Shown here: positions 1,788 to 39,132 of the stretch, piece after piece
How positions within the stretch are numbered: the first letter of the stretch is position 1
How the letters are laid out: the number at the start of each line of letters is the position of its first letter
Assembly: GCA_964510095.1 (NCBI GenBank)
Contig: CAZEAE010000002.1
Span: 22,639 to 86,638 of the forward strand
Reading direction: 5' to 3'
Origin: an uncultured Elusimicrobia bacterium
GTDB lineage: Bacteria; Elusimicrobiota; Elusimicrobia; UBA1565; UBA9628
DNA: 64,000 bases
Position numbers and translations under genes: made by a program
Notes under the pieces: model-generated
Database searches by the model: none
Seen by the model: the letters and a program-made list of their open reading frames with translations, nothing else
What the model was told of the DNA's origin: nothing

Positions 1788-1814
1788 CTCCGCCGATGAT
1801 ACCAAAAAGCAAAG

Positions 1815-1877
1815 ACGGTGTCAGGCTTTCCGGTTCACATATCGCGGGAATACCGCGAGCGGAAAGCCTGACACCGT
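1815..1877. repeat. REP-like palindromic element: 19-bp inverted arms (acggtgtcaggctttccgg / ccggaaagcctgacaccgt), each matching the distal half of the inverted repeats flanking the RAYT at 19314-20254
   Basis: Near-perfect inverted repeat (18/19) with a 25-nt spacer that itself contains a small hairpin (cgcgg gaata ccgcg). Intergenic, between the peroxiredoxin stop and the aqpZ start. The GGTGTCAGGCTTTCCGG core also occurs in the RAYT flanks. Confidence 0.6.
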
Positions 1878-3511: not shown

Positions 3512-5656
3512 CTAGAGGAAGAGCGGCGCCAGCACCAGCGTGATCGTGGCCAAGAGCTTGATGAGCACATGCAAAGACGGCCCTGCCGTGTCCTTGAAGG
3601 GGTCGCCCACGGTGTCGCCGACGACGGCCGCCTTGTGCGGGTCGGAGCGCTTGCCGCCGTGCGCGCCCGTCTCGATGTACTTCTTCGCGTTGTCCCAGGC
3701 GCCGCCCGAGTTGTTGAAGAACAGCGCCATCAGGATGCCGGCGATGGTGCCGACCATCAGGAGGCCGGCGACGACCTCGGCGGCGATCGTAGGGTCCTCC
3801 GGCGTGATGAAGCTGCGGAAGACCAGGCCGGTGACGATGGGGCCGCCGACGGCGAGTATGCCCGGCAGGACCATGGCCTTGAGCGCGCCCACGGTGACGA
3901 TGTCGACGCACTGGCCGTAGTCGGGGTCCTCGGTGCCCTTCATGATGCCGGGCTTCTCCTTGAATTGACGGCGGACCTCGTTGATGACCGCGTAGGCGGC
4001 CGTGCCGACGGCGCGGATCGCCAAGGAGGAGAACAGGAACACCATCATGGCGCCGATCAGGCCGCCGACGAACACCTCGGGCTTGGCGAGGTTGACGGCC
4101 ATATGGACGCCGGTGTAGTTGTAGATCTCGTCAAGGTAGGCGGAGAACAACAGGAACGCGGCCAAGGCGGCCGAGCCGATGGCGTACCCCTTGGTCAGCG
4201 CCTTGGTGGTATTGCCGACGGCGTCCAGGCGGTCGGTCTTCTTGCGGATCTCCTCGGGCTGGCGGGACATCTCGACGATGCCGCCGGCGTTGTCGGTGAT
4301 CGGGCCGAAGGTGTCCATCGCCAGGATGTAGGCGGCGGTGCCGAGCATGCCCATCGTGGCCACTGCGGTGCCGAAGAGCCCGCCGACGCCGGGCAAGGCC
4401 AGGAGGCCGAGCTTGTAGGAGGCGAGGATGGCCACCGAGATGACGATGACCGGGATGGCCGTGCACTCCAAGCCGACGGCGATGCCGGCGATGATGTTGG
4501 TGGCGGGGCCCGTCTCGGAGGCCTGGGCGATCATCTGCACCGGGCGGTACTTGTACTCCGTGTAGTACTGGGTGATGTACACGAAGGCCTGAGCGGTCAG
4601 GATGCCGATGACGCCGCAGGCGGTGTAATACATCCAAGCGTCGGGGGCCCGCTCGGAGGACAGCATCACGTAGGCGGCGCCGGCAAATCCGATGGCGGCC
4701 AGCACCGAGGTGAGATAATAGCCGCGGTTGAGCGCGTCCATCGGGTCGGCGTCTTCCTCCGTCTTGACGATCATGATGCCGAAGATGGAGGCCAGGATGC
4801 CCAGCGCGCGCGCGACCAGCGGGAACACGACGCCTTTCCAGCCGAAGTACGGGATCAGGCCGACCCCCAGGATCATCGCGCCGATGTTCTCGGCGGCGGT
4901 GGACTCGAAGAGGTCGGCGCCGCGGCCGGCGCAGTCTCCCACGTTGTCTCCCACCAGGTCGGCGATGACGGCGGGGTTGCGGGGGTCGTCCTCGGGGATG
5001 CCGGCCTCGACCTTGCCGACGAGGTCGGCGCCGACGTCGGCGGCCTTCGTGTAGATGCCGCCGCCGAGCTGGGCGAAGAGGGCGACGAAGCTGGCGCCGA
5101 AGCCGTAACCGACGATCATGAAGGGGATCTTGGCGTAGTCATAGCCCATGAACTTGAGGACGCTGAAGAGGCCCCCGACGCCGAGCAAGGAGAGGGCCGT
5201 GACGAACAGGCCGGAGACGGCGCCTCCGCGCAGCGCGATGCGCAGGGCGTCGTTGAGGGAGGTCCGGGCGGCCGAGGCCGTGCGGATGTTGGTCCTGATA
5301 GAGACCCACATGCCGATATAGCCGGCGATGACGGAGCAGGCCGCTCCCATGACGAAGGAGATCGTAGTGAAGATGGCCAACTGCATCGGCGCCGCGGGAT
5401 CGTGCTCGTTATGATGGCGGACGAAGGCATAAAGGACGAAGATGATCACCGACAAGACGCTGGCGAAGGTGATGATCGTATTGTTCTGGCGCTTGAGGAA
5501 GGCCTCGGCGCCGGCCTTGATGGCGTCGGAGATCTTGCGCATCTCGGGGGTGCCGGTGTCCTTGGCCAGGACCCACTGGATCAGCCAGTAGGCGACGGCG
5601 AGGGCGATGACGCAGATCGTGAAAACGAGGCCGAGGGCGGGTTTCATCGAGTCCAT
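3512..5656 (-). CDS. hppA: Membrane-bound H+(or Na+)-translocating pyrophosphatase
   Basis: 714 aa, about 16 TM segments. Signature motifs GGIYTKAADVGADLVGKVE and DNVGDCAGRGADLFES of V-PPases. Confidence 0.95.
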   Translation of the reverse strand: MDSMKPALGLVFTICVIALAVAYWLIQWVLAKDTGTPEMRKISDAIKAGAEAFLKRQNNTIITFASVLSVIIFVLYAFVRHHNEHDPAAPMQLAIFTTISFVMGAACSVIAGYIGMWVSIRTNIRTASAARTSLNDALRIALRGGAVSGLFVTALSLLGVGGLFSVLKFMGYDYAKIPFMIVGYGFGASFVALFAQLGGGIYTKAADVGADLVGKVEAGIPEDDPRNPAVIADLVGDNVGDCAGRGADLFESTAAENIGAMILGVGLIPYFGWKGVVFPLVARALGILASIFGIMIVKTEEDADPMDALNRGYYLTSVLAAIGFAGAAYVMLSSERAPDAWMYYTACGVIGILTAQAFVYITQYYTEYKYRPVQMIAQASETGPATNIIAGIAVGLECTAIPVIVISVAILASYKLGLLALPGVGGLFGTAVATMGMLGTAAYILAMDTFGPITDNAGGIVEMSRQPEEIRKKTDRLDAVGNTTKALTKGYAIGSAALAAFLLFSAYLDEIYNYTGVHMAVNLAKPEVFVGGLIGAMMVFLFSSLAIRAVGTAAYAVINEVRRQFKEKPGIMKGTEDPDYGQCVDIVTVGALKAMVLPGILAVGGPIVTGLVFRSFITPEDPTIAAEVVAGLLMVGTIAGILMALFFNNSGGAWDNAKKYIETGAHGGKRSDPHKAAVVGDTVGDPFKDTAGPSLHVLIKLLATITLVLAPLFL

Positions 5657-5756: not shown

Positions 5757-6254
5757 TCAATAAACCGAGTCCCATTCCCGGCGGATGAGCGAGAATTCCA
5801 CGCGGCGGTTCTTCTCACGACCCTCCTCGGTATCGTTGGAAGCCACCGGTTGCGAAGCGCCGTAGCCCTTGAAGCGGATCGAGGGCGGCGGGACGCCTTT
5901 CTTGACCAGGTAGCCCTTGACGGCCTTGGCGCGGCGCTCCGAGAGCTGCTGGTTGTAATCCGCTCCGCCTTCGCTCGAGGTGTGGGCCGTGATGCGGATC
6001 TTCAGGCTCTGGTGGCTCAGCAGGAACTCGGCGATGAGGTCGAGCGCCGGATAGCCGTCGGCGCGCAGCTGGGCGGAGTCGAAGTCGAAGCCGATCTTGG
6101 GCAGCTGGCCCGTATCGATGCGTTTCTGGATGGCGGAGAGCTCCACGCTGGCGCGGATCTCCTTGTGCCGGGCCGCCGCGGCGCCTGGCGCGTCGTCTTG
6201 GGCCGCTAGCGAAGCGGCCAAGAGCATGCAAACGATCGACAATCCTTTCCTCAT
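5757..6254 (-). CDS. OmpA-family protein (signal peptide + OmpA-like peptidoglycan-binding domain)
   Basis: N-terminal signal peptide. C-terminal OmpA_C-like motifs (TSSEGGADYNQQLSERRAKAV...RRVEF). Confidence 0.8.
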   Translation of the reverse strand: MRKGLSIVCMLLAASLAAQDDAPGAAAARHKEIRASVELSAIQKRIDTGQLPKIGFDFDSAQLRADGYPALDLIAEFLLSHQSLKIRITAHTSSEGGADYNQQLSERRAKAVKGYLVKKGVPPPSIRFKGYGASQPVASNDTEEGREKNRRVEFSLIRREWDSVY

Positions 6255-9190: not shown

Positions 9191-10765
9191 TCATGAAGGA
9201 GGAACCAGCTTTATGAGCTTATCGGTCGCCATGTCGTATTGATACAGATCCTCATAGCTGTAGGATCGGCGGACCGTGCTCCCGAACCGCTCGATGACGC
9301 CGGCGCGCTCGCCGGTCATCCAGGGCGTTTGAAGATTGATGGTCATGCCTTTGCGTCCGGTTTTGAGCTTGAGGGCTGAATCGAACCCCCATGGTTCATC
9401 CAAGAAAAACATGTCCGCGCCGTAGAAGCTCGGCTGGTTCCAAAGGACCAGGAGCGTGGCCGAGCCCGGCAGCTCGGCGGTCCTGCGGCTTATCCTTTCG
9501 ACACCCTCCATCTGAGCCTTCCACGCATCCCCCCAGTGCCGCGCCATGGTCCAGTTCGTCGCGGTGAATACACCCACGGTCATGGCCAGCAAGGCCCCTT
9601 GGACCGAGCCGGAACCTTTGAGGCCCATCGGCGCGGAGATGCGCCGGGAGACCTCTAAGATCGCGGCGGCCAGCAGCAGCCCCGCGCTTAAGCCCGCGCC
9701 CCCATTGACGCGGCCCGCCAGGCCTAAAATCTTCACGCCGTAGCCCCCGAGGGCATAGGGGACATAGGCCGCCAAGAACCCCAACACGCCCATCCAAAGG
9801 ATCACCACAAGCGAGCCATGGGCTGCCGCCTCTCGATGTTTCAAGGCAGTCTTCCGCGTTGGAGCAACGGCGGGTTCCGCCGCCATCAAGAACCTGGCGA
9901 CGGCGATGGTGAACACCGCCCAAAGAATGAGCCCCGCTGGGGTCGACTCTTTGAGCGACCATGCCGATGCATCGGCGCAGACCCGCAGCATCCCCAAGGT
10001 CAGGCAATCCAACCCGTCTCCCATCACTTTCAACATGAGAGGGACAGAAAGCGCCAGGGTCTTTGGATTTTCATACCCCATGACCAGTTGCATCCCTTTC
10101 TTCGCCCAAAATAGGACGATGAGCAAGACGACGCCGAAGGGCGCCAGGCTCCCGAGGGCTTCGCGCGCTGAAGCGCGGAGCGTTCGGCCGGCGACCCGCG
10201 CGTTGGCCAGCACGGCCGCACCCGACATCAGCGGCAGCAGGACACCGGCTTCGTAGCACAATGCGCCTGCTAGATAGGCGGTCATGCTGGCGGCCAGGCC
10301 GGCGCGCTTGCCGGTCTCGAGCCATCCCCAATGAAGCACCATGCTCAGAAGGATCAAAGCCTGGGCCGCGGGCTGGGCAATATTGGTCACCCAGTGATGC
10401 GTGGCGGCATGGACGGGATAAATCAGGGCTAGGCAGGCGGCCAGCAATGCGAAGGCCTCGTTCTTTAGGACTTTTTTAAGGAAAATATAAAAAAGGACTC
10501 CGCCGGCCGCATCGAAAGCCGGCAAGGCAAGATGATAGAGAAGCGGTTTTTCTCCCGCCAGATGGTGGAGCAAGGCGAAAATGGGGATCGACGCGGGGCG
10601 GGCGCCATAATTCGAGCGTGCCACCGCAAGCACGGTGTTCCAAAGGCCCGGATGTTTCCCTAGATCCTCCAGCAAGACCCAATCATCATGATAAAAGCCG
10701 AGTCTTGATGAAAAGATCCCGAACGAGATGACCTCGAGGGCGATGATGACGACGATGGGGCGCAA
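9191..10765 (-). CDS. Polytopic membrane protein of unknown function (possible GT-C-like glycosyltransferase); TTG start
   Basis: 524 aa, very hydrophobic with at least 10 predicted TM helices. Lies between tgt and the protease. No confidently recognised motif. Confidence 0.4.
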   Translation of the reverse strand: MRPIVVIIALEVISFGIFSSRLGFYHDDWVLLEDLGKHPGLWNTVLAVARSNYGARPASIPIFALLHHLAGEKPLLYHLALPAFDAAGGVLFYIFLKKVLKNEAFALLAACLALIYPVHAATHHWVTNIAQPAAQALILLSMVLHWGWLETGKRAGLAASMTAYLAGALCYEAGVLLPLMSGAAVLANARVAGRTLRASAREALGSLAPFGVVLLIVLFWAKKGMQLVMGYENPKTLALSVPLMLKVMGDGLDCLTLGMLRVCADASAWSLKESTPAGLILWAVFTIAVARFLMAAEPAVAPTRKTALKHREAAAHGSLVVILWMGVLGFLAAYVPYALGGYGVKILGLAGRVNGGAGLSAGLLLAAAILEVSRRISAPMGLKGSGSVQGALLAMTVGVFTATNWTMARHWGDAWKAQMEGVERISRRTAELPGSATLLVLWNQPSFYGADMFFLDEPWGFDSALKLKTGRKGMTINLQTPWMTGERAGVIERFGSTVRRSYSYEDLYQYDMATDKLIKLVPPS

Positions 10766-10771
10766 ATGGGT

Positions 10772-11824
10772 CTATCGGACCGCGACGGTCTCGGCGCTCG
10801 CCGAGACAAGCAGGGCCCGGATCGTAGCCGCGGCATCGGCGCTCAGAGAACCGGAGGACAGGGCGGCCTTCAGGCCGTCTCGGATGCTGGCCGCAGGCAC
10901 GGTATAAGAAAGCTCGGTCCAGATCTCGGGGCTGTTGAGGCGCTGCATCTCGGTCAAATACGCGGAGCTCGACACCTTGGGCGATTTGGGGATGCGCCCC
11001 GTCCAGACGATGCCCACCACGTCGCCGGTGTTGCGGTCCACGAAGGCCGAGCCCGAATCCCCGTGGGACACCTCGCAGCCGCTGGCGAAGGACCACACCT
11101 TGTCCGGGCCCGGGTTGAAGTCGTCGGGGTCGGCCATCTTGCGGAACTCGTTGCGCTTGGAGAAAACGCGGCAGTCGGAATCCTGGTTGGCCATCATGAC
11201 CCCTCGAGGGTTGTTGGCGACGCCAAAACCGATGGTCAGCAGCTCTTGCCCCGGATAGATCTCGGCGTCGTAGGCGAAATTCCGGCCGAGCCCCGCCAGG
11301 ACGGCCGCGTCCGCGGCGCCGACGCGTATGGCGAAGACCGCCAGGTCGATCTCCTTCCAATCGCCGTAGACCTTTTCGCACGGGAAGCTCTTGCCCAGCA
11401 GGACGAAATCGGCGCGGACGCCGCAGCCCATCGCCCGCATCACATGGTGGTTGGTGGCCATCATATGGTGGCCGTTGAAGATCCCCAGGTAAAAAGCCGT
11501 GCCGCCGCCGTAATTGGCGGTGGCTTTGGCCGCGCGCTGGAAAACCGCGCTCTCGCGGCCCAAAGAGCCCGCCGTCACCGGCTTCTTGCCCCATTCATCG
11601 CCCAGCTGATAGTCCTTGTTGAGGAAGCCCGCGGCCGTGCCCATGTTCGAGATGCTGGTGTGCCTCAGGTGGACCGTCGGCGCGGGAACGGGAACGGCTG
11701 TGAGCGCGACCGGGGCGGGCTGGACGCGCGCCTGCTGGAGGAATGCTTCTAGGGAAGGCAGGGGTTCCGCCGAGACCAGCAGAGGAGCGCCGCACAGTGT
11801 CAGGACCGCCAGGAATTTGTTCAT
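10772..11824 (-). CDS. Secreted trypsin-like serine protease (S1 family)
   Basis: Signal peptide. Catalytic triad context: H in GHHMMATNHHV, D in KEIDLAVF, S in GDSGSAF. Confidence 0.75.
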   Translation of the reverse strand: MNKFLAVLTLCGAPLLVSAEPLPSLEAFLQQARVQPAPVALTAVPVPAPTVHLRHTSISNMGTAAGFLNKDYQLGDEWGKKPVTAGSLGRESAVFQRAAKATANYGGGTAFYLGIFNGHHMMATNHHVMRAMGCGVRADFVLLGKSFPCEKVYGDWKEIDLAVFAIRVGAADAAVLAGLGRNFAYDAEIYPGQELLTIGFGVANNPRGVMMANQDSDCRVFSKRNEFRKMADPDDFNPGPDKVWSFASGCEVSHGDSGSAFVDRNTGDVVGIVWTGRIPKSPKVSSSAYLTEMQRLNSPEIWTELSYTVPAASIRDGLKAALSSGSLSADAAATIRALLVSASAETVAVR

Positions 11825-11881
11825 GCTCTCAGGATAGCGGCATTCAGGGACGGCTCCCAGGGTCGAAAGGTGGAACGCGGC

Positions 11882-11899
11882 CTAGGTCTAAAGACCTAG
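11882..11899. promoter_or_regulatory. Perfect palindrome CTAGGTCT-AA-AGACCTAG in the divergent promoter region between the protease and vapB
   Basis: 8-bp inverted arms, followed by an AT-rich stretch (aataataatgtgatgattatag) 90 bp upstream of vapB. Candidate operator for antitoxin autoregulation. Confidence 0.25.
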
Positions 11900-11991
11900 A
11901 ATAATAATGTGATGATTATAGATCCGCAACTTGGTCCCTGGGACCTCCTGGGTCTTGTGGTGCAGGCGTTTTTTGAATACACTGTAGGCAT

Positions 11992-18506: not shown

Positions 18507-19286
18507 TTAGCCGAGCTTGGCGAGGACTTGGTCGGAGATGTCGAAGTTGGCATACACGTTCTTGACGTCGTCCAATTCCTCGAGCAGCTCGATGAGCTTG
18601 AGCAGCGTGCGCGCGTCCTCCTCGTTGACCGGGACCAGGTTGTCGGGGATCTGGGAGACCTCGGCGGACGTCCACTTGACGCCTTTGGCGGCCAGCCCTT
18701 CCTTGACCTTGTCCAAGTCGAAGGGGGGGGTAAAGACCTCGTAGGCGTCGTCGCCGGCCTTGAAATCCTCGGCGCCCAGGTCCAGGGCCAAGCCCATCAG
18801 GGTGTCCTCGTCGGGCGCGCCCTCTTTGCTCACGACGATCAGGCCGCGGGTCTTGAACATCCAAGCCACGCAGCCGGCCGCGCCCTTGGTGCCGCCGTTC
18901 TTGGCCAGGACGGTGTAGACATCGCCGCCGGTGCGGTTGCGGTTGTCGGTGGTCACCTCGATGAGCAGCGCGACCCCGCCGGGGCCGTAGCCCTCGTAGG
19001 CCAGCTCTTCGTAGGCCGCGCCTTCCAGTTCGCCGGTGCCTTTCATGATGGCGCGCTTGATGGTTTCGGCCGGCATCATCACGTCTTTGGCGTCGCCGAC
19101 GGCCTTGCGCAGGCGGGGGTTGCCGTTGACGTCGCCGCCGCCCAGCTTGGCCGCGATGGAGATCTCGCGGGAGCACTTGGTCCAGGCCTTGCCGCGCTTG
19201 GCGTCCGTCGCGCCCTTCTTGCGCTTGATATTAGCCCAATGCGAGTGACCGCCCATAGCGCCTCCTAGGTCGAAGAAATCAAGCAA
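18507..19286 (-). CDS. yebC: YebC/PmpR-family probable transcriptional regulator
   Basis: 259 aa. Conserved N-terminus GHSHWANIKRKKGATDAKRGK. Confidence 0.9.
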   Translation of the reverse strand: MLDFFDLGGAMGGHSHWANIKRKKGATDAKRGKAWTKCSREISIAAKLGGGDVNGNPRLRKAVGDAKDVMMPAETIKRAIMKGTGELEGAAYEELAYEGYGPGGVALLIEVTTDNRNRTGGDVYTVLAKNGGTKGAAGCVAWMFKTRGLIVVSKEGAPDEDTLMGLALDLGAEDFKAGDDAYEVFTPPFDLDKVKEGLAAKGVKWTSAEVSQIPDNLVPVNEEDARTLLKLIELLEELDDVKNVYANFDISDQVLAKLG

Positions 19287-19313
19287 AGTATATCAGAAAA
19301 AGCAGTGGGCGGG

Positions 19314-20254
19314 ACGGTGTCAGGCTTTCCGGTATTACCGGTATTACCGGTATTGCATGGAACAAAATCGCACCCTCGATCGTATAAGAGATATGGGGAG
19401 ACCACCAAGAATCCATTTCCCGGGCGCCATCTTCCACCTTATCTCGAGAGGCAACGACAAACAAGACATCTACCTCGATGATGAGGACCGCCGTCGATTT
19501 ATCTCGATCTTGACGATGATGAAGAAACGGCATCCTTTCCAGCTCTATGCATATTGCCTGATGACCAACCATTTTCACCTGCTGGTGGAAGTCGACCGCT
19601 GCGAGGCCAAGGTTTTTATGCACGCAATTCTGACCAGCTACTCACATTACTTCAATGGTCTTCACAATCGGGTCGGCCATCTCTTTCAGGGCCGCTATAC
19701 GTCGCTGCTTTGCCAGAGGGACTCCTACTTGATCAGGCTGATCCAATATATCCACCTCAACCCGGTCGCCGCAGGGATGGTCTCGCATGCCTCCGGTTGG
19801 CCATGGTCGGGACATCATGACTACCTCTCCGAGCGCCCGGGATTGACCGATACATCTTTCCCATTAAGCCTCTTCGGCGCGGATCGCAAGGAGAGTCTAG
19901 ATGCCTACAAGGAGCTTGTTTCGCAGCCGCGCTGCGTGCTTCCCAGCACGCAAGAAATTCAATCGTTCACGCCTGAGCTGTTCGAACCCTTAGGGATGGG
20001 TAAGTCCTTGCAGCTGGTGGCGCTGGAGACAGCTAAAGCCACGGGGATCTCCGAAGGCTTTCTAAGAAGCAACAGTCGGGCGCGATGTTTGACACCCGTA
20101 CGGCGGAGATTTCTGGAACAGGCGCTTAGGGAGGGGTATTCGGCTGCCGAAGTGGGATCGTTTCTCAACCGGTCCCCAGTAGCGATTTCGCGGTTGCTGG
20201 CTCGTCAGGCCTAATTACCGGTAATACCGGTAATACCGGAAAGCCTGACACCGG
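19314..20254 (+). mobile_element. REP-associated tyrosine transposase unit: RAYT gene bracketed by about 40-bp inverted REP arms
   Basis: Left arm acggtgtcaggctttccggtattaccggtattaccggtatt (19314-19354). Right arm is its reverse complement (20213-20254, about 39/41 identical). A further partial copy of the same REP lies at 1815-1877. Confidence 0.7.
19357..20214 (+). CDS. REP-associated tyrosine transposase (RAYT, IS200/IS605 TnpA-like HUH Y1 enzyme)
   Basis: HUH motif in CLMTNHFHLLVEV. Catalytic Tyr context GHLFQGRYTS. Size and architecture of TnpA-REP. Immediately flanked by inverted REPs. Confidence 0.85.
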   Translation: MEQNRTLDRIRDMGRPPRIHFPGAIFHLISRGNDKQDIYLDDEDRRRFISILTMMKKRHPFQLYAYCLMTNHFHLLVEVDRCEAKVFMHAILTSYSHYFNGLHNRVGHLFQGRYTSLLCQRDSYLIRLIQYIHLNPVAAGMVSHASGWPWSGHHDYLSERPGLTDTSFPLSLFGADRKESLDAYKELVSQPRCVLPSTQEIQSFTPELFEPLGMGKSLQLVALETAKATGISEGFLRSNSRARCLTPVRRRFLEQALREGYSAAEVGSFLNRSPVAISRLLARQA

Positions 20255-20276
20255 CTATTTGCTAGAATGGCGCCTA

Positions 20277-20348
20277 GGGCCCGTAGTTCAAAGGATAGAG
20301 CACGTGGCTTCGAACCACGGGATCCGGGTTCGATTCCTGGCGGGCCCA
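20277..20348 (+). tRNA. tRNA-Arg (anticodon TCG); CCA not encoded
   Basis: Cloverleaf by hand: acceptor GGGCCCG/CGGGCCC, D-arm GTTC-AAAGGATA-GAGC, anticodon stem CGTGG/CCACG with loop CTTCGAA (U33-TCG-A37), T-arm CCGGG-TTCGATT-CCTGG, discriminator A. TAGAAT -10-like hexamer 9 nt upstream. Confidence 0.85.
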
Positions 20349-35898: not shown

Positions 35899-37712
35899 TA
35901 GGCGCGGCCCTCTTTCTTCAGCGTGGCCAAGGAATCCCTCGCCGCGGCCTTGATCTCCTTGTCGCGCCCGGTGATGATCTCATACCAGGTGCGCCGGGCC
36001 GTAGCCTTGAGGAAGGCCAGCGAGGCGTTGGTGGGGAAGCGGCCTAGGGCGGTGACGATGGAGACCTTGACCTCCTCGTGCGGCGTCGCTCCGAAAGCCC
36101 CGATGAGCATCTCGTCTAGCCCCGGGTGGTTGAGCAGCGACAGCGCGATGATGGCCGGGGTCGTCTCCTCGGGCGCGCCGGAGACGATATAGGCGATCAG
36201 GCCGACGATGGCCTTCGGCCCTCCGGTCTTGCCGAGTATCTTGGCTGCGGCCTCCCTGACTTTGTGGTGAGAGTGCCCTATCAAAGGGACCAGCGCATCC
36301 AGATTCTCCTCGCCGCCGATGTCGGCTAGGACGGCGATGACGTTCACGATGATGAACCAGTCCTCGTGGCCCAAAGCCGCCCTGAGGGCTTTGGTACCGA
36401 AGCGCCGTCCCAGCGCCGCCAACAACGCGCAGAGCTTGGCGCGGTGGCTCTTGTCCTGGACCTTCTGCATCTCGCCCAGCAGCATGGGCATGACCCCTTC
36501 GCCGAGGAATACGAGGAATTCCGCGACCTTGGCGAAGGCGTCAGAATCCTTCTCCAAGGCGGCTAGATGCGCGACGATGCGTTCGGCCACGGCGGGGGAG
36601 GCGATCTTCTCTTCGATGAGCTTGCGCAGGAGGGGCAGGAAGGCGGTGAGCCTGGCATCCCTCGCCATGAGCGTCCAGCGCTCATGTTCCTTCATGAGCG
36701 ACTCGATCTGCCCGTCGCGCCCCAGCTCCATCAGCAGCCGGCCATAAGCCTCGATGACGTACTTCGGCTTGCGATCGTCTTCGGGCGCCGCCAGCATCGC
36801 CTGCGCTTTGGCCAGCGACCACAGCATGGCGGCGTTCTTCTCATGCGTCTGATGCACGCCCAGGCTGTCGCGGTCGGCCTTGAGCATGACCCCGGCCCAG
36901 GAGACCACGGTCGGGCGGTCCCAGCCCGGACGGCCCTTCGCGGCGGTGCGCGGGCGCCCCTGCCATCGCGGCGGCCGCCGGACCAGCGCGGAAAACTCCT
37001 CAAAGCGCGCCCGGATCCGGGGATCGTAGCAGGACCAGGGCATGGCCGCCTCGAATTCCTCCAGGGGGAGCTCGCGGTTGCGGCAGCTGTCGAGGAGCTC
37101 GGTGACCTCTTCAGCCTCCTTGCCCTGAAGCCCCTCGTTCTGCTGGAAGAGCAGGCCCAGGAAGTCCGGCAAGGTCTTGGCGCGGGCGAAGGCCTCCACT
37201 TGCGCCTCGCTGAGCTGCCCCGGCATCTCATGCTTCTCCTCTTGCTCGCCGGTGACGACGAAATTGAGGATGAAGGTCATCTGCAGGCCGTCGATGCGGA
37301 CCTCCTGGACGCTCTTCTGGATATCGCTGAGGGTCGTCTTCTCATCGGGCTTGGCGACCAGGATCTTCAGGAACTCGACCATGCCCTCCTTGGTCAAGCG
37401 ATTGGTCAAAAGGAGCTGGCCGATGCCGAGCGTGTGCAGCGCGACGGCGAAAGCCGTCACATCGGGGCTGTCGGTCAGCTCGACCTCGTCGACCGTGATG
37501 ATCTTGGCTTTGACGTCCAAGACGAGCGTCGTCTCCTGCCCCAGCGTCTTAAGAAGCACCTGGGTCACCCTTTCGGCCAGCTGGAGGATGATGGGATGGC
37601 CTGCCTTATAAAGCGAGGTGGTCTTGGCGCTCGTCGCCAAAGAGCCGATCAAGACCTCCACCGAGGCCAGTTTTTGCCGCGAGGCCTGCTGTTCCGCCGT
37701 GTGCTCCGCCAC
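35898..37712 (-). CDS. HEAT-repeat protein
   Basis: 604 aa. C-terminal PBS-lyase-type HEAT repeats (GHEDWFIIVNVIAVLADIGGEEN..., HSHHKVREAAAKILGKTGGPKA...). Confidence 0.7.
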   Translation of the reverse strand: MAEHTAEQQASRQKLASVEVLIGSLATSAKTTSLYKAGHPIILQLAERVTQVLLKTLGQETTLVLDVKAKIITVDEVELTDSPDVTAFAVALHTLGIGQLLLTNRLTKEGMVEFLKILVAKPDEKTTLSDIQKSVQEVRIDGLQMTFILNFVVTGEQEEKHEMPGQLSEAQVEAFARAKTLPDFLGLLFQQNEGLQGKEAEEVTELLDSCRNRELPLEEFEAAMPWSCYDPRIRARFEEFSALVRRPPRWQGRPRTAAKGRPGWDRPTVVSWAGVMLKADRDSLGVHQTHEKNAAMLWSLAKAQAMLAAPEDDRKPKYVIEAYGRLLMELGRDGQIESLMKEHERWTLMARDARLTAFLPLLRKLIEEKIASPAVAERIVAHLAALEKDSDAFAKVAEFLVFLGEGVMPMLLGEMQKVQDKSHRAKLCALLAALGRRFGTKALRAALGHEDWFIIVNVIAVLADIGGEENLDALVPLIGHSHHKVREAAAKILGKTGGPKAIVGLIAYIVSGAPEETTPAIIALSLLNHPGLDEMLIGAFGATPHEEVKVSIVTALGRFPTNASLAFLKATARRTWYEIITGRDKEIKAAARDSLATLKKEGRA

Positions 37713-37794
37713 GTTCGAAGTGTAACAAGGACTTCAGGATTTTACAAGACCTCACGATAACCGAATAACCGAGGGCCTGGCACCGATTTAAATA

Positions 37795-37806: not shown

Positions 37807-39132
37807 ATGGAACCCTATCTCGGTCATCGCAAAGCTTTGGAGCGCCGCCTGCCCGACGGGCTGATCCTCCTTTCCGGCGGCACCATGCTCACGCGCAATC
37901 ATGACGTCGATTTCGTGTTCCGGCAGAAATCCCACTTCCTCTATCTGACCGGCGTCGAGGAGCCCGGCTGCCATCTTCTGATCGACCCCAAACGGCGCCG
38001 ACACACCCTCTTCATCCCTCGGATCGACAATCACCACCGGGTCTGGCTGGGCCATGTGCCGGGGCCGCAGGAGGCGCGGCGGCTCTTCGGCATCGACCGG
38101 GTGGCCTACACCGACGAGCTCCCGGCCGCTCTGCGCCGGGCAAAAGCCGGCTATCGCAAGACCTACCTCGATGCCATCTCGGCTTCCCGCCACAAGCAGG
38201 CCCTGCGCGGCGTCGCCGCGGCGCCGGCCCTGCTCGAGGACGCGCTCCAGGAACTGCGCGCCTGCAAGACGCCGGGCGAGCTTGCGCTGCTGAAGCAGTC
38301 CAACGCCGTCAGCGGCCAGGCGCACCGCGAGGTGATGCGCTCGGTGCGTCCCGGCCAATATGAATTCGAGGCGCAGGCCGTCTTCGAGGCGGCATGCCTG
38401 CGGCGCGGCTTTCGGCACTTGGGCTATCCCTCGATCGTCGCAACGGGCACCAACGGCGCCGTCCTGCACTACCACCGCAACGCCGCCAAGATCAAGGACG
38501 GCGACCTCCTCCTCATCGACGCCGGCGCCGAGCTCAAAGGCTATACCGCCGACATCACTCGCACCTTCCCGGCCAACGGGCGCTTCACCCGGCGCCAGCG
38601 CGACATCTACTCCATCGTGCTCGCCGCCCAGAAATCCTGTATCGCCCGCTCGCGCCCGGGGATCGTCTCGGCCGACCTCCATCTGCACTCGATGACGGTC
38701 ATCGCCGAGGGGCTTAAGGACCTCGGCATCCTTCGCGGCGACACCGCCGGGCTCGTCGAGGGGGGCGCGGTCCGGTTGTTCTACCCTCATGGGTTGACCC
38801 ACATGCTCGGCTTGGACGTCCATGACGTCACGGGGGGGCGCAAGCGGCGCATGCCCAACCCCACGAAGGTCCCGGTGCGCTTCGTCGCGCGCCTGGAGCC
38901 GGGGTTCGTCATCACCATGGAGCCGGGGATCTATTTCATCGGGGCCCTGCTTCAAGACCCCGCGCTCCGGCGCAAGCACCGCGCCTCGGTCGACTTCGCC
39001 AAGGCCGACGGCTTCCTTGATTTCGGAGGCGTGCGCATCGAAGACGATATCGTGATCCGTCCCGGCGCGCCCCTGAACCTGACGGATGTCCCCAAGGAGA
39101 TCGCGGATGTGGAAGAAGCCTGCCGCCGCTAG
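37807..39132 (+). CDS. pepP: Xaa-Pro aminopeptidase (M24B)
   Basis: 441 aa. N-terminal creatinase-like domain. M24 metal-ligand motifs (HYHRNAAKIKDGDLLLIDAGAELKGYTADITRTFP, ...HGLTHMLGLDVHD..., EPGIY). Confidence 0.9.
   Translation: MEPYLGHRKALERRLPDGLILLSGGTMLTRNHDVDFVFRQKSHFLYLTGVEEPGCHLLIDPKRRRHTLFIPRIDNHHRVWLGHVPGPQEARRLFGIDRVAYTDELPAALRRAKAGYRKTYLDAISASRHKQALRGVAAAPALLEDALQELRACKTPGELALLKQSNAVSGQAHREVMRSVRPGQYEFEAQAVFEAACLRRGFRHLGYPSIVATGTNGAVLHYHRNAAKIKDGDLLLIDAGAELKGYTADITRTFPANGRFTRRQRDIYSIVLAAQKSCIARSRPGIVSADLHLHSMTVIAEGLKDLGILRGDTAGLVEGGAVRLFYPHGLTHMLGLDVHDVTGGRKRRMPNPTKVPVRFVARLEPGFVITMEPGIYFIGALLQDPALRRKHRASVDFAKADGFLDFGGVRIEDDIVIRPGAPLNLTDVPKEIADVEEACRR

What the first reader, a model, noticed from the sequence alone, without database searches (positions are those of the whole stretch)
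19314..20254. RAYT with cognate REPs inserted between yebC and tRNA-Arg, and a REP copy of the same family at 1815-1877
The transposase has HUH (HFH) and single-Tyr (QGRY) motifs and is bracketed by about 40-bp inverted repeats, each containing the iterated CCGGTATTACCGG motif. A REP of the same family, a 19-bp-arm hairpin, sits in another intergenic region 17 kb away. This is the hallmark of an active or recent REP/RAYT system. The right REP arm ends about 20 nt before the tRNA-Arg gene and overlaps its probable promoter.
Basis: partly seen in the sequence, partly recalled or inferred. Interest (0 to 1): 0.5.

Follow-up and report, generated by a model that had tools for sequence, protein, structure and literature searches.

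The report
TIR-flanked RAYT-like transposase gene (TIRtron)
A single-copy tyrosine (HUH) transposase gene in a groundwater Elusimicrobiota genome carries a DnaA-like DNA-binding tail and sits between two perfect 38-bp inverted repeats, with one miniature copy of those repeats 17 kb away; it belongs to the known but untested "TIRtron/TIRYT" relatives of REP-RAYT systems, so it is a tidy example and not a new kind of element.

Summary
The sequence features are real. A Y1/HUH gene lies between perfect 38-bp inverted repeats (19315-19352 / 20216-20253). A 63-bp inverted pair of the same 17-mer lies at 1815-1877.

It is not a canonical REP/RAYT. The flanks are terminal inverted repeats with a GGTGTCAG tip, followed by three 9-bp iterons. 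There is no GTAG-tagged hairpin, and the protein misses NCBI's REP-transposase cut-off. It has a C-terminal DnaA-domain-IV-like HTH. These are the defining features of TIRYT/TIRtrons (Di Nocera 2013), equal to TnpA-Y1 subclass 2.1.2 (Quentin 2018).

- The likely start is ATG 19393, giving 273 aa.
- The catalytic Tyr is in QYIHLNPV, not QGRY.

The gene is an old resident, not a recent insertion. It occupies the same site in a 96-97%-identical strain, with dS similar to yebC and dN/dS 0.32. Every relative I examined was recorded in only one genomic context.

Additional observations:
- Outer box GGKGYCAG is conserved across phyla.
- Element-specific 9-bp iterons are candidate HTH sites.
- A conserved GGAAC-N17-CGTA (ECF-like) motif precedes the start codon.
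- A second lineage has its own TIR dimer.

A genome-wide copy count could not be made.

The parts
19315..19352 (+). Left terminal inverted repeat (TIR-L). Outer box GGTGTCAGGCTTTCCGG lies at 19316-19332. Next come 9-bp iterons: GGTATTACC twice (19331-19348) and a third degenerate unit GGTATTGCA (to 19357).
   Evidence: 38/38 complementary to 20216-20253. The outer box is conserved in 8 related elements and in 3 of 4 plasmid homologues. The iteron occurs only in the TIRs.
19359..19384 (+). Conserved bipartite motif GGAAC-N17-CGTA between TIR-L and the start codon. It is a candidate ECF-sigma-type promoter. With this spacing the mRNA would be leaderless or nearly so.
   Evidence: It is the only match in the window, against 0.13 expected. 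GGAAC and CGTA are invariant with the same 17-nt spacing in the seven left ends aligned (six independent elements; L118 is the window's orthologue), whose proteins share only about 36-56% identity between lineages. It fits the AAC / CGT(A) / T-tract rules for ECF promoters in PMC5758882. Promoter function is inferred and was not tested.
19393..20214 (+). TIRYT gene, 273 aa. The N-terminal Y1/HUH nuclease domain has HUH = H60-F61-H62 (codons 19570-19578) and catalytic Tyr119 (codon 19747-19749). A low-confidence linker follows. The C-terminal DnaA-domain-IV-like HTH spans residues about 200-273 (19990-20211).
   Evidence: Pfam Y1_Tnp. Invariant H60, H62, Y119 and N123 in 111 homologues. AlphaFold model pLDDT 89.6; the best PDB match is 4er8, E 2e-8. 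The C-terminal profile hits 1j1v at E 4e-4. For the C-terminal model, the top 7 PDB matches are all DnaA DNA-binding domains, with TM 0.72-0.82 and rmsd 1.4-2.5 A. dN/dS is 0.32 against the sister strain.
20216..20253 (-). Right terminal inverted repeat (TIR-R). It starts one base after the stop codon, and the iteron tract overlaps that codon. The sister strain has 4 iterons here instead of 3.
   Evidence: It is 38/38 identical between strains apart from iteron number.
1815..1877 (.). ORF-less TIR dimer (MITE/REPIN-like). Two inverted copies of the outer box (1815-1833 and 1859-1877) surround a 25-nt spacer that holds one iteron-like GGTATTCCC in a small hairpin. It sits between the ahpC-like stop (1888) and the aquaporin-like start (1787), both on the minus strand.
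   Evidence: The RNA hairpin on the minus strand folds at -53.6 kcal/mol, z = -6.6. An outward-facing CTGACA-17-TATCAT site with a TG before the -10 points toward the aquaporin gene.

Best explanation

Shown:
- The protein joins a Y1/HUH single-strand DNA nuclease-ligase domain (H60-F-H62, Tyr119) to a DnaA-domain-IV-like helix-turn-helix domain.
- It is bounded by two identical 38-bp terminal inverted repeats.
- Each repeat has a phylogenetically conserved outer box (GGKGYCAGRC) and an element-specific inner block of 9-bp direct repeats.
- It has stayed at the yebC / tRNA-Arg site since the divergence of strains with dS about 0.1, and it is under purifying selection.
- The outer boxes also exist as ORF-less inverted pairs in other intergenic regions. 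One lies in this window, one in a JGI metagenome contig, and an independent example lies beside a 40%-identical relative.

Inferred:
- The enzyme no longer moves itself. It acts in trans on those TIR dimers, as RAYTs do on REPINs.
- The Y1 domain would cleave and rejoin one strand at the outer box when the dimer extrudes as a long hairpin in single-stranded DNA.
- The HTH domain would dock on the 9-bp iterons in duplex DNA. There it could position the enzyme and, because the iterons abut the -35-like GGAAC, autoregulate the gene.
- Transcription probably starts from an ECF-sigma-type promoter, GGAAC-N17-CGTA.
For: Identity:
- Pfam Y1_Tnp; 4er8 is the best match by sequence and by fold.
- Catalytic residues are invariant in 111 homologues.
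- DnaA-IV-like C-terminus: Bac_DnaA_C in 24/111 relatives, HTH_23 in 8, HTH_38 in 5; profile hit to 1j1v; fold matches to 3pvp, 1j1v, 8btg, 1l8q.

TIRs:
- Perfect 38-bp inverted repeat.
- Tip GGTGTCAG matches 7 of 8 positions of the published TIRYT consensus GGGGWSAS.
- Relatives have GGGGTCAG or GGGGACAG, in Elusimicrobiota and also in Sporomusa, Legionella and Pseudomonas plasmids.

Iterons:
- A 9-bp period at the same position in window, L120, L124, L127/L129 and Sporomusa, with different units.
- 17/17 identical between L127 and L129, although their proteins are only 56% identical and the adjacent spacer has diverged.

Residency:
- Same site in L118/L119.
- Nucleotide identity 94.6-94.8% for the gene, against 96.4-99% for the flanks.
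- dS 0.118 against 0.082 for yebC; dN/dS 0.32.
- Each homologue protein was recorded in one genomic context only.
- One copy in the window.
- Rare on plasmids: 21 of 72,556 records.

Dispersal:
- Dimers at window 1815-1877, L121 640-699 and L131 5977-6051.

Literature:
- TIRtrons and TIR repeat families, PMC3733652.
- Subclass 2.1 with DnaA_C/HTH tails, PMC6006769.
Against: - No transposition, cleavage or DNA-binding activity is shown for this or any other TIRYT. The literature search found only the two descriptive papers.
- Only one dimer was found in 64 kb. Six of eight related loci show none within about 20 kb, so a real repeat population in this genome is unproven.
- The dimers keep the outer box but at most one degenerate iteron. 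If the HTH needs iterons, it is unclear how dimers would be recognised.
- Two relatives (L128, L137) have small palindromes in place of 9-bp iterons.
- TIR-L has lost its first iteron in the sister strain.
- The window's tip differs from GGGGWSAS at one position.
- Placement in subclass 2.1.2 rests on shared features, not on a tree with the published reference sequences.
Confidence: 0.75

Rival explanations
1. Canonical REPtron. A RAYT is flanked by its cognate REP sequences, and a large REP/BIME or REPIN population is spread through the genome.
For: The closest solved structure is TnpA-REP 4er8. The best NCBIfam model is REP_Tyr_transpos. JGI annotators call many relatives RayT. The gene shows single-copy, vertically inherited behaviour. 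There is a REPIN-like hairpin 17 kb away.
Against: The score of 73.7 is below the 80-bit equivalog cut-off. The flanks have no GTAG or CGTC tag and no imperfect-palindrome REP; they are 38-bp TIRs abutting the ORF. The C-terminal DnaA-like domain is typical of subclass 2.1, for which no REPs were found. Only one extra copy was seen in 64 kb.
Confidence: 0.1
2. An autonomous insertion sequence. The 939-bp TIR-ORF-TIR unit would transpose as a whole, and the short inverted pair would be its internally deleted MITE.
For: The unit is compact and bounded exactly by perfect TIRs. The L131 dimer looks like an internal deletion that retains about 19 nt of one end and about 35 nt of the other. The site between tRNA-Arg and yebC is occupied by a different gene (Omp85) in a related genus, so the element did arrive there at some time. 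A relative (L124) has its TIRs around two genes.
Against: There is no second copy in the window. Identical proteins were never recorded in two contexts, over up to 8 contigs per protein. The orthologous position is retained, with dS like the neighbouring gene. P0008 and P0019 are syntenic at 56% identity. No target-site duplication was seen at any of the copies inspected. The family is rare on plasmids.
Confidence: 0.12
3. A decaying relic. The transposase and its repeats would no longer do anything, and the second copy would be a fossil.
For: TIR-L has accumulated 3-5 changes in the sister strain. The C-terminal domain evolves fast, with dN/dS 0.51. Few repeat copies were detected.
Against: The reading frame is intact in all three strains. 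dN/dS is 0.16 in the catalytic domain. All catalytic residues are conserved. In the window the two TIRs are still 38/38 identical. The upstream motifs are conserved over deep divergence.
Confidence: 0.03

Closest known systems
TIRtron / TIRYT (Di Nocera, De Gregorio & Rocco 2013, BMC Genomics 14:522; PMC3733652)
   Same: A RAYT-like Y1 gene is flanked directly by long terminal inverted repeats. The repeats overlap or abut the ORF. Their tip fits GGGGWSAS: 7/8 here, and 8/8 in relatives L120, L124 and Sporomusa. The TIRs also occur as solo or dimeric copies in modest numbers.
   Different: This is the first example I am aware of in Elusimicrobiota. The tip is GGTGTCAG. The passages of that paper that I read do not mention an inner block of 9-bp iterons, a conserved GGAAC-N17-CGTA motif, or orthologous conservation.
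TnpA-Y1 subclass 2.1.2 (Quentin, Siguier, Chandler & Fichant 2018, BMC Genomics 19:475; PMC6006769)
   Same: These are long Y1 proteins with a C-terminal domain resembling Bac_DnaA_C, HTH_23 or HTH_28. They have no typical REP nearby. The authors equate the subclass with TIRYTs.
   Different: The authors left the target of the DnaA-like domain open, because GGGGWSAS does not resemble a DnaA box. Here a 9-bp iteron array sits next to that box and is a concrete candidate. Placement in their tree was not tested.
REPtron: RAYT/TnpA-REP with REP/BIME or REPIN (Nunvar 2010; Bertels & Rainey 2011; Ton-Hoang 2012; structure 4er8, Messing 2012, PMC3479197)
   Same: The catalytic fold and the HUH/Tyr/Asn active-site residues match. 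The gene is single-copy and vertically inherited. Its flanking repeats recur as hairpin-forming inverted doublets in intergenic DNA.
   Different: There is no GTAG-tagged imperfect palindrome. The flanks are long TIRs. An extra DnaA-like DNA-binding domain is present. The protein falls below the NCBIfam equivalog threshold. The apparent repeat density is far lower.
IS200/IS605 family (IS608, ISDra2 TnpA)
   Same: Y1 HUH fold (Foldseek E about 1e-4). No target-site duplication.
   Different: Those elements have no terminal inverted repeats. They use subterminal hairpins, are multicopy and move horizontally. Their TnpA proteins are about 130-155 aa and have no HTH domain.

Membership tests
TIRYT / TIRtron (= TnpA-Y1 subclass 2.1.2) | Y1/HUH protein homologous to TnpA-REP, with an HUH motif and one catalytic Tyr | tested here: met
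   Pfam Y1_Tnp 9e-12. 4er8 is the best match by sequence (E 2e-4) and by fold (E 2e-8). H60, H62, Y119 and N123 are invariant in 111 homologues.
TIRYT / TIRtron (= TnpA-Y1 subclass 2.1.2) | Gene flanked directly by long terminal inverted repeats instead of REP hairpins | tested here: met
   A 38-bp perfect inverted repeat, 40 nt before the start codon and 1 nt after the stop codon. Eight relatives have TIRs of 21-32 bp at the same positions.
TIRYT / TIRtron (= TnpA-Y1 subclass 2.1.2) | TIR tip fitting the consensus GGGGWSAS | tested here: met
   The window tip is GGTGTCAG, 7 of 8. L120, L124 and Sporomusa have GGGGTCAG, and the P. aeruginosa plasmid has GGGGACAG, all 8 of 8. The consensus is quoted from PMC3733652.
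TIRYT / TIRtron (= TnpA-Y1 subclass 2.1.2) | C-terminal HTH domain related to Bac_DnaA_C / HTH_23 / HTH_28 | tested here: met
   The window protein alone gives only sub-threshold HTH_38 (21 bits against 27). Relatives hit Bac_DnaA_C (24), HTH_23 (8) and HTH_28 (2) out of 111. The domain profile hits E. coli DnaA domain IV, 1j1v, at E 4e-4. The domain model's top 7 PDB matches are all DnaA DNA-binding domains.
TIRYT / TIRtron (= TnpA-Y1 subclass 2.1.2) | Phylogenetic placement within subclass 2.1 of the published tree | not tested
TIRYT / TIRtron (= TnpA-Y1 subclass 2.1.2) | TIRs recur elsewhere as solo or dimer repeats (true of some TIRtrons only) | tested here: met
   Dimers at window 1815-1877, in a JGI contig (L121) and independently in L131. 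Genome-wide numbers are unknown.
REPtron (RAYT + REP/REPIN) | Flanking repeats are short imperfect palindromes carrying a conserved 5' GTAG (or CGTC) tetranucleotide | tested here: not met
   The repeat tip is GGTGTCAG and there is no GTAG. The only hairpin within one TIR comes from the palindromic core of the iteron, at -6 to -11 kcal/mol.
REPtron (RAYT + REP/REPIN) | Protein reaches the NCBIfam NF047646 REP_Tyr_transpos equivalog cut-off | tested here: not met
   73.7 bits against a cut-off of 80, and only residues 17-151 are matched.
REPtron (RAYT + REP/REPIN) | Tens to hundreds of cognate repeats per genome | tested here: inconclusive
   One extra element was found in 64 kb. The rest of the genome could not be read.
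REPtron (RAYT + REP/REPIN) | Single copy, vertical inheritance | tested here: met
IS200/IS605 insertion sequences | No terminal inverted repeats, subterminal hairpins, multicopy and horizontally mobile | tested here: not met
   Perfect TIRs. One context per protein. Rare on plasmids.

The most novel reading that the evidence does not exclude
The DnaA-domain-IV-like tail of TIRYTs reads arrays of element-specific 9-bp iterons. These iterons lie between the conserved cleavage box and an ECF-sigma-type promoter. If so, duplex-DNA recognition in the style of a replication initiator has been recruited to aim, and to autoregulate, a single-strand HUH nuclease. Expression would then be tied to a stress sigma factor. 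This would answer the question left open by Quentin et al. (2018) about what the DnaA-like domain binds, and it would set the TIRYT mechanism apart from the hairpin-plus-GTAG recognition used by RAYTs.
Probability: 0.3. Interest if true: 0.55.

Novelty: new member of a known kind. Interest (0 to 1): 0.3.

Why it matters
TIRYTs are very common. This search found 36,898 cluster representatives at E <= 1e-3. Yet the literature search found only two descriptive papers and no experiment.

This locus is a clean, minimal example: 939 bp, perfect ends, an intact enzyme and one cognate miniature element nearby. Comparative data mark three short non-coding blocks as functional: the outer box, the 9-bp iterons and the GGAAC-N17-CGTA motif. 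That turns a vague class into a set of directly testable binding and cleavage predictions.

For genome annotation, it shows that "REP-associated transposase" labels on such genes are imprecise.

Tried and rejected
1. Scan of genome contigs with the exact 17-mer CGGTGTCAGGCTTTCCG. These are chance matches and the source genome was not recovered.
2. Metagenome scan with the paired-arm pattern. It found only one hit (L121), which is useful but gives no census.
3. Viral-contig search with the protein alignment. It returned two loci, one of them truncated, so it added little.
4. Search for an exact empty site through YebC homologues. The nearest genomes either carry Omp85 between tRNA-Arg and yebC (L141) or are rearranged (L140). 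The ends of the insertion could therefore not be defined.
5. Search for a presence/absence polymorphism of the 1815-1877 dimer through the AhpC-like protein. Only the same strain was returned.
6. Sigma-70 promoter for tRNA-Arg inside TIR-R. The scan found none.
7. Target-site duplications. None was seen at the TIRtron, the three dimers or the relatives.
8. Iteron as a DnaA box. The units share a T-rich TWTTRC-like core but match TTWTNCACA at only about 4 of 9 positions. I do not claim they are DnaA boxes.
9. Whether L124 (a 49%-identical paralogue from the same sample) belongs to the same genome. GC content is similar and no marker genes overlap, so this is undecided.
10. Rfam gathering scan of the window. 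It found only the tRNA.
Full report
**1. What is in the sequence**

- The window holds an ORF at 19357-20214 (+). It matches Pfam Y1_Tnp at 9e-12.
- The ORF lies between arms 19315-19352 and 20216-20253, which are 38 nt long and 100% complementary.
- Each arm has an outer part, GGTGTCAGGCTTTCCGG, followed by GGTATTACC units with a 9-bp period. That 9-mer occurs four times in 64 kb, all in the arms, against 0.03 expected.
- The outer 17-mer occurs four times with up to 3 mismatches, against 0.33 expected; no shuffle reaches four. Two copies are the element's ends.
- The other two copies form an inverted pair at 1817-1833 / 1859-1875 with a 25-nt spacer. The pair folds as a long hairpin: DNA -30.9 kcal/mol, z = -9.8; RNA on the minus strand -53.6 kcal/mol, z = -6.6.
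- tRNA-Arg(TCG) is at 20277-20348, 23 nt beyond the right arm.

**2. Corrections of detail**

- In the sister strain (L118/L119) the ATG at 19357 reads AGG. Homologues begin MGRPPR or MPRPPR. The start is therefore almost certainly ATG 19393, giving 273 aa.
That position is F or H in several homologues.
- The residue that aligns with the catalytic Y115 of E. coli TnpA-REP is the Tyr of RLIQ-Y-IHLNPV, which is Y119 here. Y115, H59/H61 and N119 are named in PMC3479197.
- H60, H62, Y119 and N123 are invariant in 111 homologues.

**3. The protein**

- An AlphaFold model built on 111 sequences has mean pLDDT 89.6.
- Its best PDB match is the REP-associated transposase 4er8 (E 2e-8, TM 0.71 on the target). 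IS608, ISDra2 and IS200 TnpA follow at about 1e-4.
- After a low-confidence linker comes a C-terminal helical domain.
- The window protein alone gives only a sub-threshold HTH_38 hit. Among 111 relatives, 24 hit Bac_DnaA_C, 8 hit HTH_23, 5 hit HTH_38 and 2 hit HTH_28.
- A profile of the domain hits E. coli DnaA domain IV (1j1v) at E 4e-4 over nearly its whole length.
- A separate model of the domain (pLDDT 89) has DnaA DNA-binding domains as its top seven PDB matches: 3pvp TM 0.82 and rmsd 1.4 A, 1j1v TM 0.79, then 8btg and 1l8q.
- In the alignment, the arginines of the basic loop (DnaA R399/R401) have counterparts. The DnaA recognition-helix signature RDHTTV is replaced by RSPxxIS, so a different DNA specificity is expected. 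This last point is an inference.
- NCBIfam REP_Tyr_transpos scores 73.7 bits, below its 80-bit cut-off, and covers only the N-terminal domain.

**4. What it is**

- The literature contains exactly this combination.
- Di Nocera et al. 2013 (PMC3733652) described RAYT-like genes flanked by long terminal inverted repeats instead of REPs. The repeats often carry the tip GGGGWSAS, and some have moderately abundant solo or dimer TIR families. The authors named these TIRtrons and TIRYTs.
- Quentin et al. 2018 (PMC6006769) placed 20 of the 26 TIRYTs in TnpA-Y1 subclass 2.1. Its subgroup 2.1.2 carries Bac_DnaA_C-, HTH_23- or HTH_28-like C-termini. They found no REPs nearby. They noted that GGGGWSAS is unlike a DnaA box, which leaves the role of the DnaA-like domain open.
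- The window's tip GGTGTCAG fits that consensus at 7 of 8 positions.
- Relatives examined here fit fully: L120 and L124 GGGGTCAGGCC, Sporomusa termitida pSPTER GGGGTCAGGCCT, a P. aeruginosa plasmid GGGGACAG. A Legionella plasmid has AGGGTCAGGCC.
- The element is therefore a TIRtron. Filing it as a canonical REPtron fails on two tested features, the GTAG-tagged palindromic REP and the NCBIfam threshold.

**5. Residency versus mobility**

- The source is an Elusimicrobiota MAG from Hainich groundwater.
- A strain with 96-97% nucleotide identity carries the same element at the same place, between yebC and tRNA-Arg (L118, L119).
- The gene is 94.6-94.8% identical between strains, against 96.4-99% for the neighbouring genes.
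- Synonymous divergence is 0.118 for the gene and 0.082 for yebC.
- dN/dS is 0.32 overall, 0.16 in the catalytic domain and 0.51 in the C-terminal part.
- The gene has therefore diverged in place and is under purifying selection. It is neither a recent arrival nor a pseudogene.
- The same pattern holds for relatives. P0087 is on 8 contigs, all in the same context. P0017 is on 4 contigs and P0004 on 5, each in one context.
- P0008 and P0019 are only 56% identical but occupy the same site, between a TrkA-type channel gene and a giant ORF.
- There is one Y1 gene in the window. Only 21 of 72,556 plasmids carry any relative.
- The element is not ancestral to the whole clade. A genome with 73%-identical YebC has HEAT-repeat gene, tRNA-Arg(TCG), Omp85, yebC at this position.

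**6. Anatomy of the ends, from comparison**

Seven left ends were aligned. Their proteins share about 36-56% identity between lineages. The alignment shows three conserved blocks in otherwise diverged DNA.

- (a) The outer box GG[KG]G[YC]CAG is invariant at GG.G.CAG.
- (b) An inner block is made of two to four direct 9-bp units, and the sequence of the unit is element-specific:
  - window: GGTATTACC
  - L120: GTTATTACA / GTTGTTAGG
  - L124: AATTATTGC / AATTATCAG
  - L127 and L129: CACCCTTTT / CACTCTTT
  - Sporomusa: CACTATTTA / CACTAATGG
  
  L127 and L129 keep this block 17/17 identical, while their outer boxes differ at 3 of 13 positions and the next spacer has diverged. Iteron number varies between strains, 3 against 4 in TIR-R. 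Two relatives, L128 and L137, have a small palindrome here instead.
- (c) GGAAC-N17-CGTA lies just before the start codon, always with a 17-nt spacing and usually with a T-tract after GGAAC. In the window it occurs once, against 0.13 expected.
  - It fits the description of ECF-sigma promoters in Gaballa et al. 2017: AAC in the -35, CGT(A) in the -10, a -35-proximal T-tract and spacers of 14-17 (PMC5758882).
  - CGTA ends 8 nt before the ATG, so the mRNA would be leaderless or nearly so.
  - Promoter function is an inference.
  - L137 is an awkward case, because there the CGTA overlaps the start codon.

**7. Miniature copies**

- The pair at 1815-1877 keeps both outer boxes and one iteron-like GGTATTCCC.
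- A second pair of the same family, with 23-bp arms and a 16-nt loop, lies between an hflX-like gene and plsY on a JGI metagenome contig (L121).
- Independently, the relative P0087 (40% identity) has a 75-bp dimer of its own TIR about 4 kb from its TIRtron. The dimer sits in a convergent intergenic region in four assemblies. It retains about 19 nt of one end and about 35 nt of the other, as an internal-deletion derivative would.
- No dimer was seen within about 20 kb of the other six relatives.
- No target-site duplication is visible at any copy, as expected for Y1 enzymes.
- These counts agree with the "moderately abundant" TIR families of Di Nocera et al. They are far too few to establish a population in this genome.

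**8. Likely mechanism**

Shown:
- the domain composition;
- intact catalytic residues;
- selective constraint on the gene;
- the bipartite TIRs;
- the existence of ORF-less dimers.

Inferred:
- The Y1 domain cuts and rejoins one strand at or beside the conserved outer box. This would happen when the dimer is single-stranded and folded into its long hairpin, for example on the lagging-strand template, as in IS608 and as proposed for REPINs.
- The HTH domain binds the iterons in duplex DNA. That would tether the enzyme to its own ends. Because the iterons abut the -35-like GGAAC, it could also repress or tune its own transcription.
- The gene itself no longer transposes and serves the dimers in trans.

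Weak points:
- The dimers largely lack iterons.
- Nothing in this class has been tested experimentally.

**9. Local effects**

- On the minus strand, the 1815-1877 hairpin follows the ahpC-like stop by 11 nt and is followed by CTTTGCTTTTTGG.
- Its outward tip supplies CTGACA, spaced 17 nt from TATCAT with a TG before the -10. This points toward the aquaporin-like gene. It is the only promoter-like site found there, and none occurs in the shuffles.
- A combined terminator and hybrid-promoter effect is plausible but untested.
- For tRNA-Arg, a TAGAAT lies 8 nt upstream. There is no sigma-70-type -35 at proper spacing inside TIR-R. The tRNA is on the same strand as the TIRYT gene and could also be read through from it.

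**10. Verdict**

- The feature is real and the description is correct in outline.
- It belongs to the TIRtron/TIRYT class, not to REP/RAYT proper. It is an old resident rather than a recent or active insertion.
- Novelty: a new member of a known kind, although that kind has never been studied experimentally.
- The iteron array and the ECF-like motif are the parts worth following up.

Noticed in passing
window 37746-37784 (minus strand), intergenic between divergent genes ending at 37712 and starting at 37807: GGTGCCAGGCCCTCGGTTATTCGGTTATCG looks like a solo end of a different TIRYT subfamily. Its outer box resembles L127's GGTGCCAGGCCTT and is followed by two 8-bp CGGTTATY repeats. No partner arm and no Y1 gene lie nearby. 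The outer-box match alone could be chance, since about 0.5 such hits are expected by my rough estimate.
   Followed up: partly
L124 9881-12024 (P0004, 49% identical; same sample as the window: Hain_H51_02um_R2, contig 165): Perfect 31-bp TIRs enclose two convergent genes: the TIRYT (about 9954-10822) and a 388-aa TPR-like gene on the opposite strand (10779-11945). There is no TIR directly after the TIRYT stop. This may be a TIRtron with a passenger gene, or a rearranged right end. Whether the contig belongs to the same genome as the window is undecided.
   Followed up: partly
window 19302-19314, against L118 7105-7108: The window has a 13-nt stretch, GCAGTGGGCGGGA, directly outside TIR-L. It is absent in the sister strains L118 and L119, which otherwise match the flank exactly. 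This is an indel at the element's border with unknown cause.
   Followed up: no
window 1796-1824 (minus strand): The outward-facing tip of the TIR dimer gives CTGACA, then a 17-nt spacer, then TATCAT with a TG before the -10. The site lies just upstream of the aquaporin-like gene. The same hairpin followed by CTTTGCTTTTTGG looks like a terminator for the ahpC-like gene. The dimer may both end one transcript and start the next.
   Followed up: partly
window 19287-19295 (minus strand); L140 about 5110-5125; L141 about 5960-5975: yebC keeps an extended -10 (TGATATACT, TGATATAAT or TGGTATTAT) in three genera. The TIRtron sits just upstream of it and does not touch it.
   Followed up: no
L127 7976-8838 and L129 7921-8823 (minus strand): A second, 31%-identical Y1 gene lies on the other side of the TrkA-type channel gene that adjoins the TIRYT. 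It is intact in L129 (300 aa) and split into two reading frames in L127. No flanking inverted repeat was found for it.
   Followed up: partly
L146 570-700 (Skermanella mucosa plasmid pSM-2): Upstream of a distant homologue, the unit CACGCAAATGGGGTCAG(AGTCGATTCTT) is repeated three times in direct orientation. No inverted copy was found downstream. This is a different arrangement of the same outer box.
   Followed up: no
L141 4377-5893, against window 19257-20348: In a genus with 73%-identical YebC, an Omp85-family gene occupies the slot between tRNA-Arg(TCG) and yebC. In the window that slot holds the TIRtron. This intergenic position is a variable spot in otherwise conserved synteny.
   Followed up: partly
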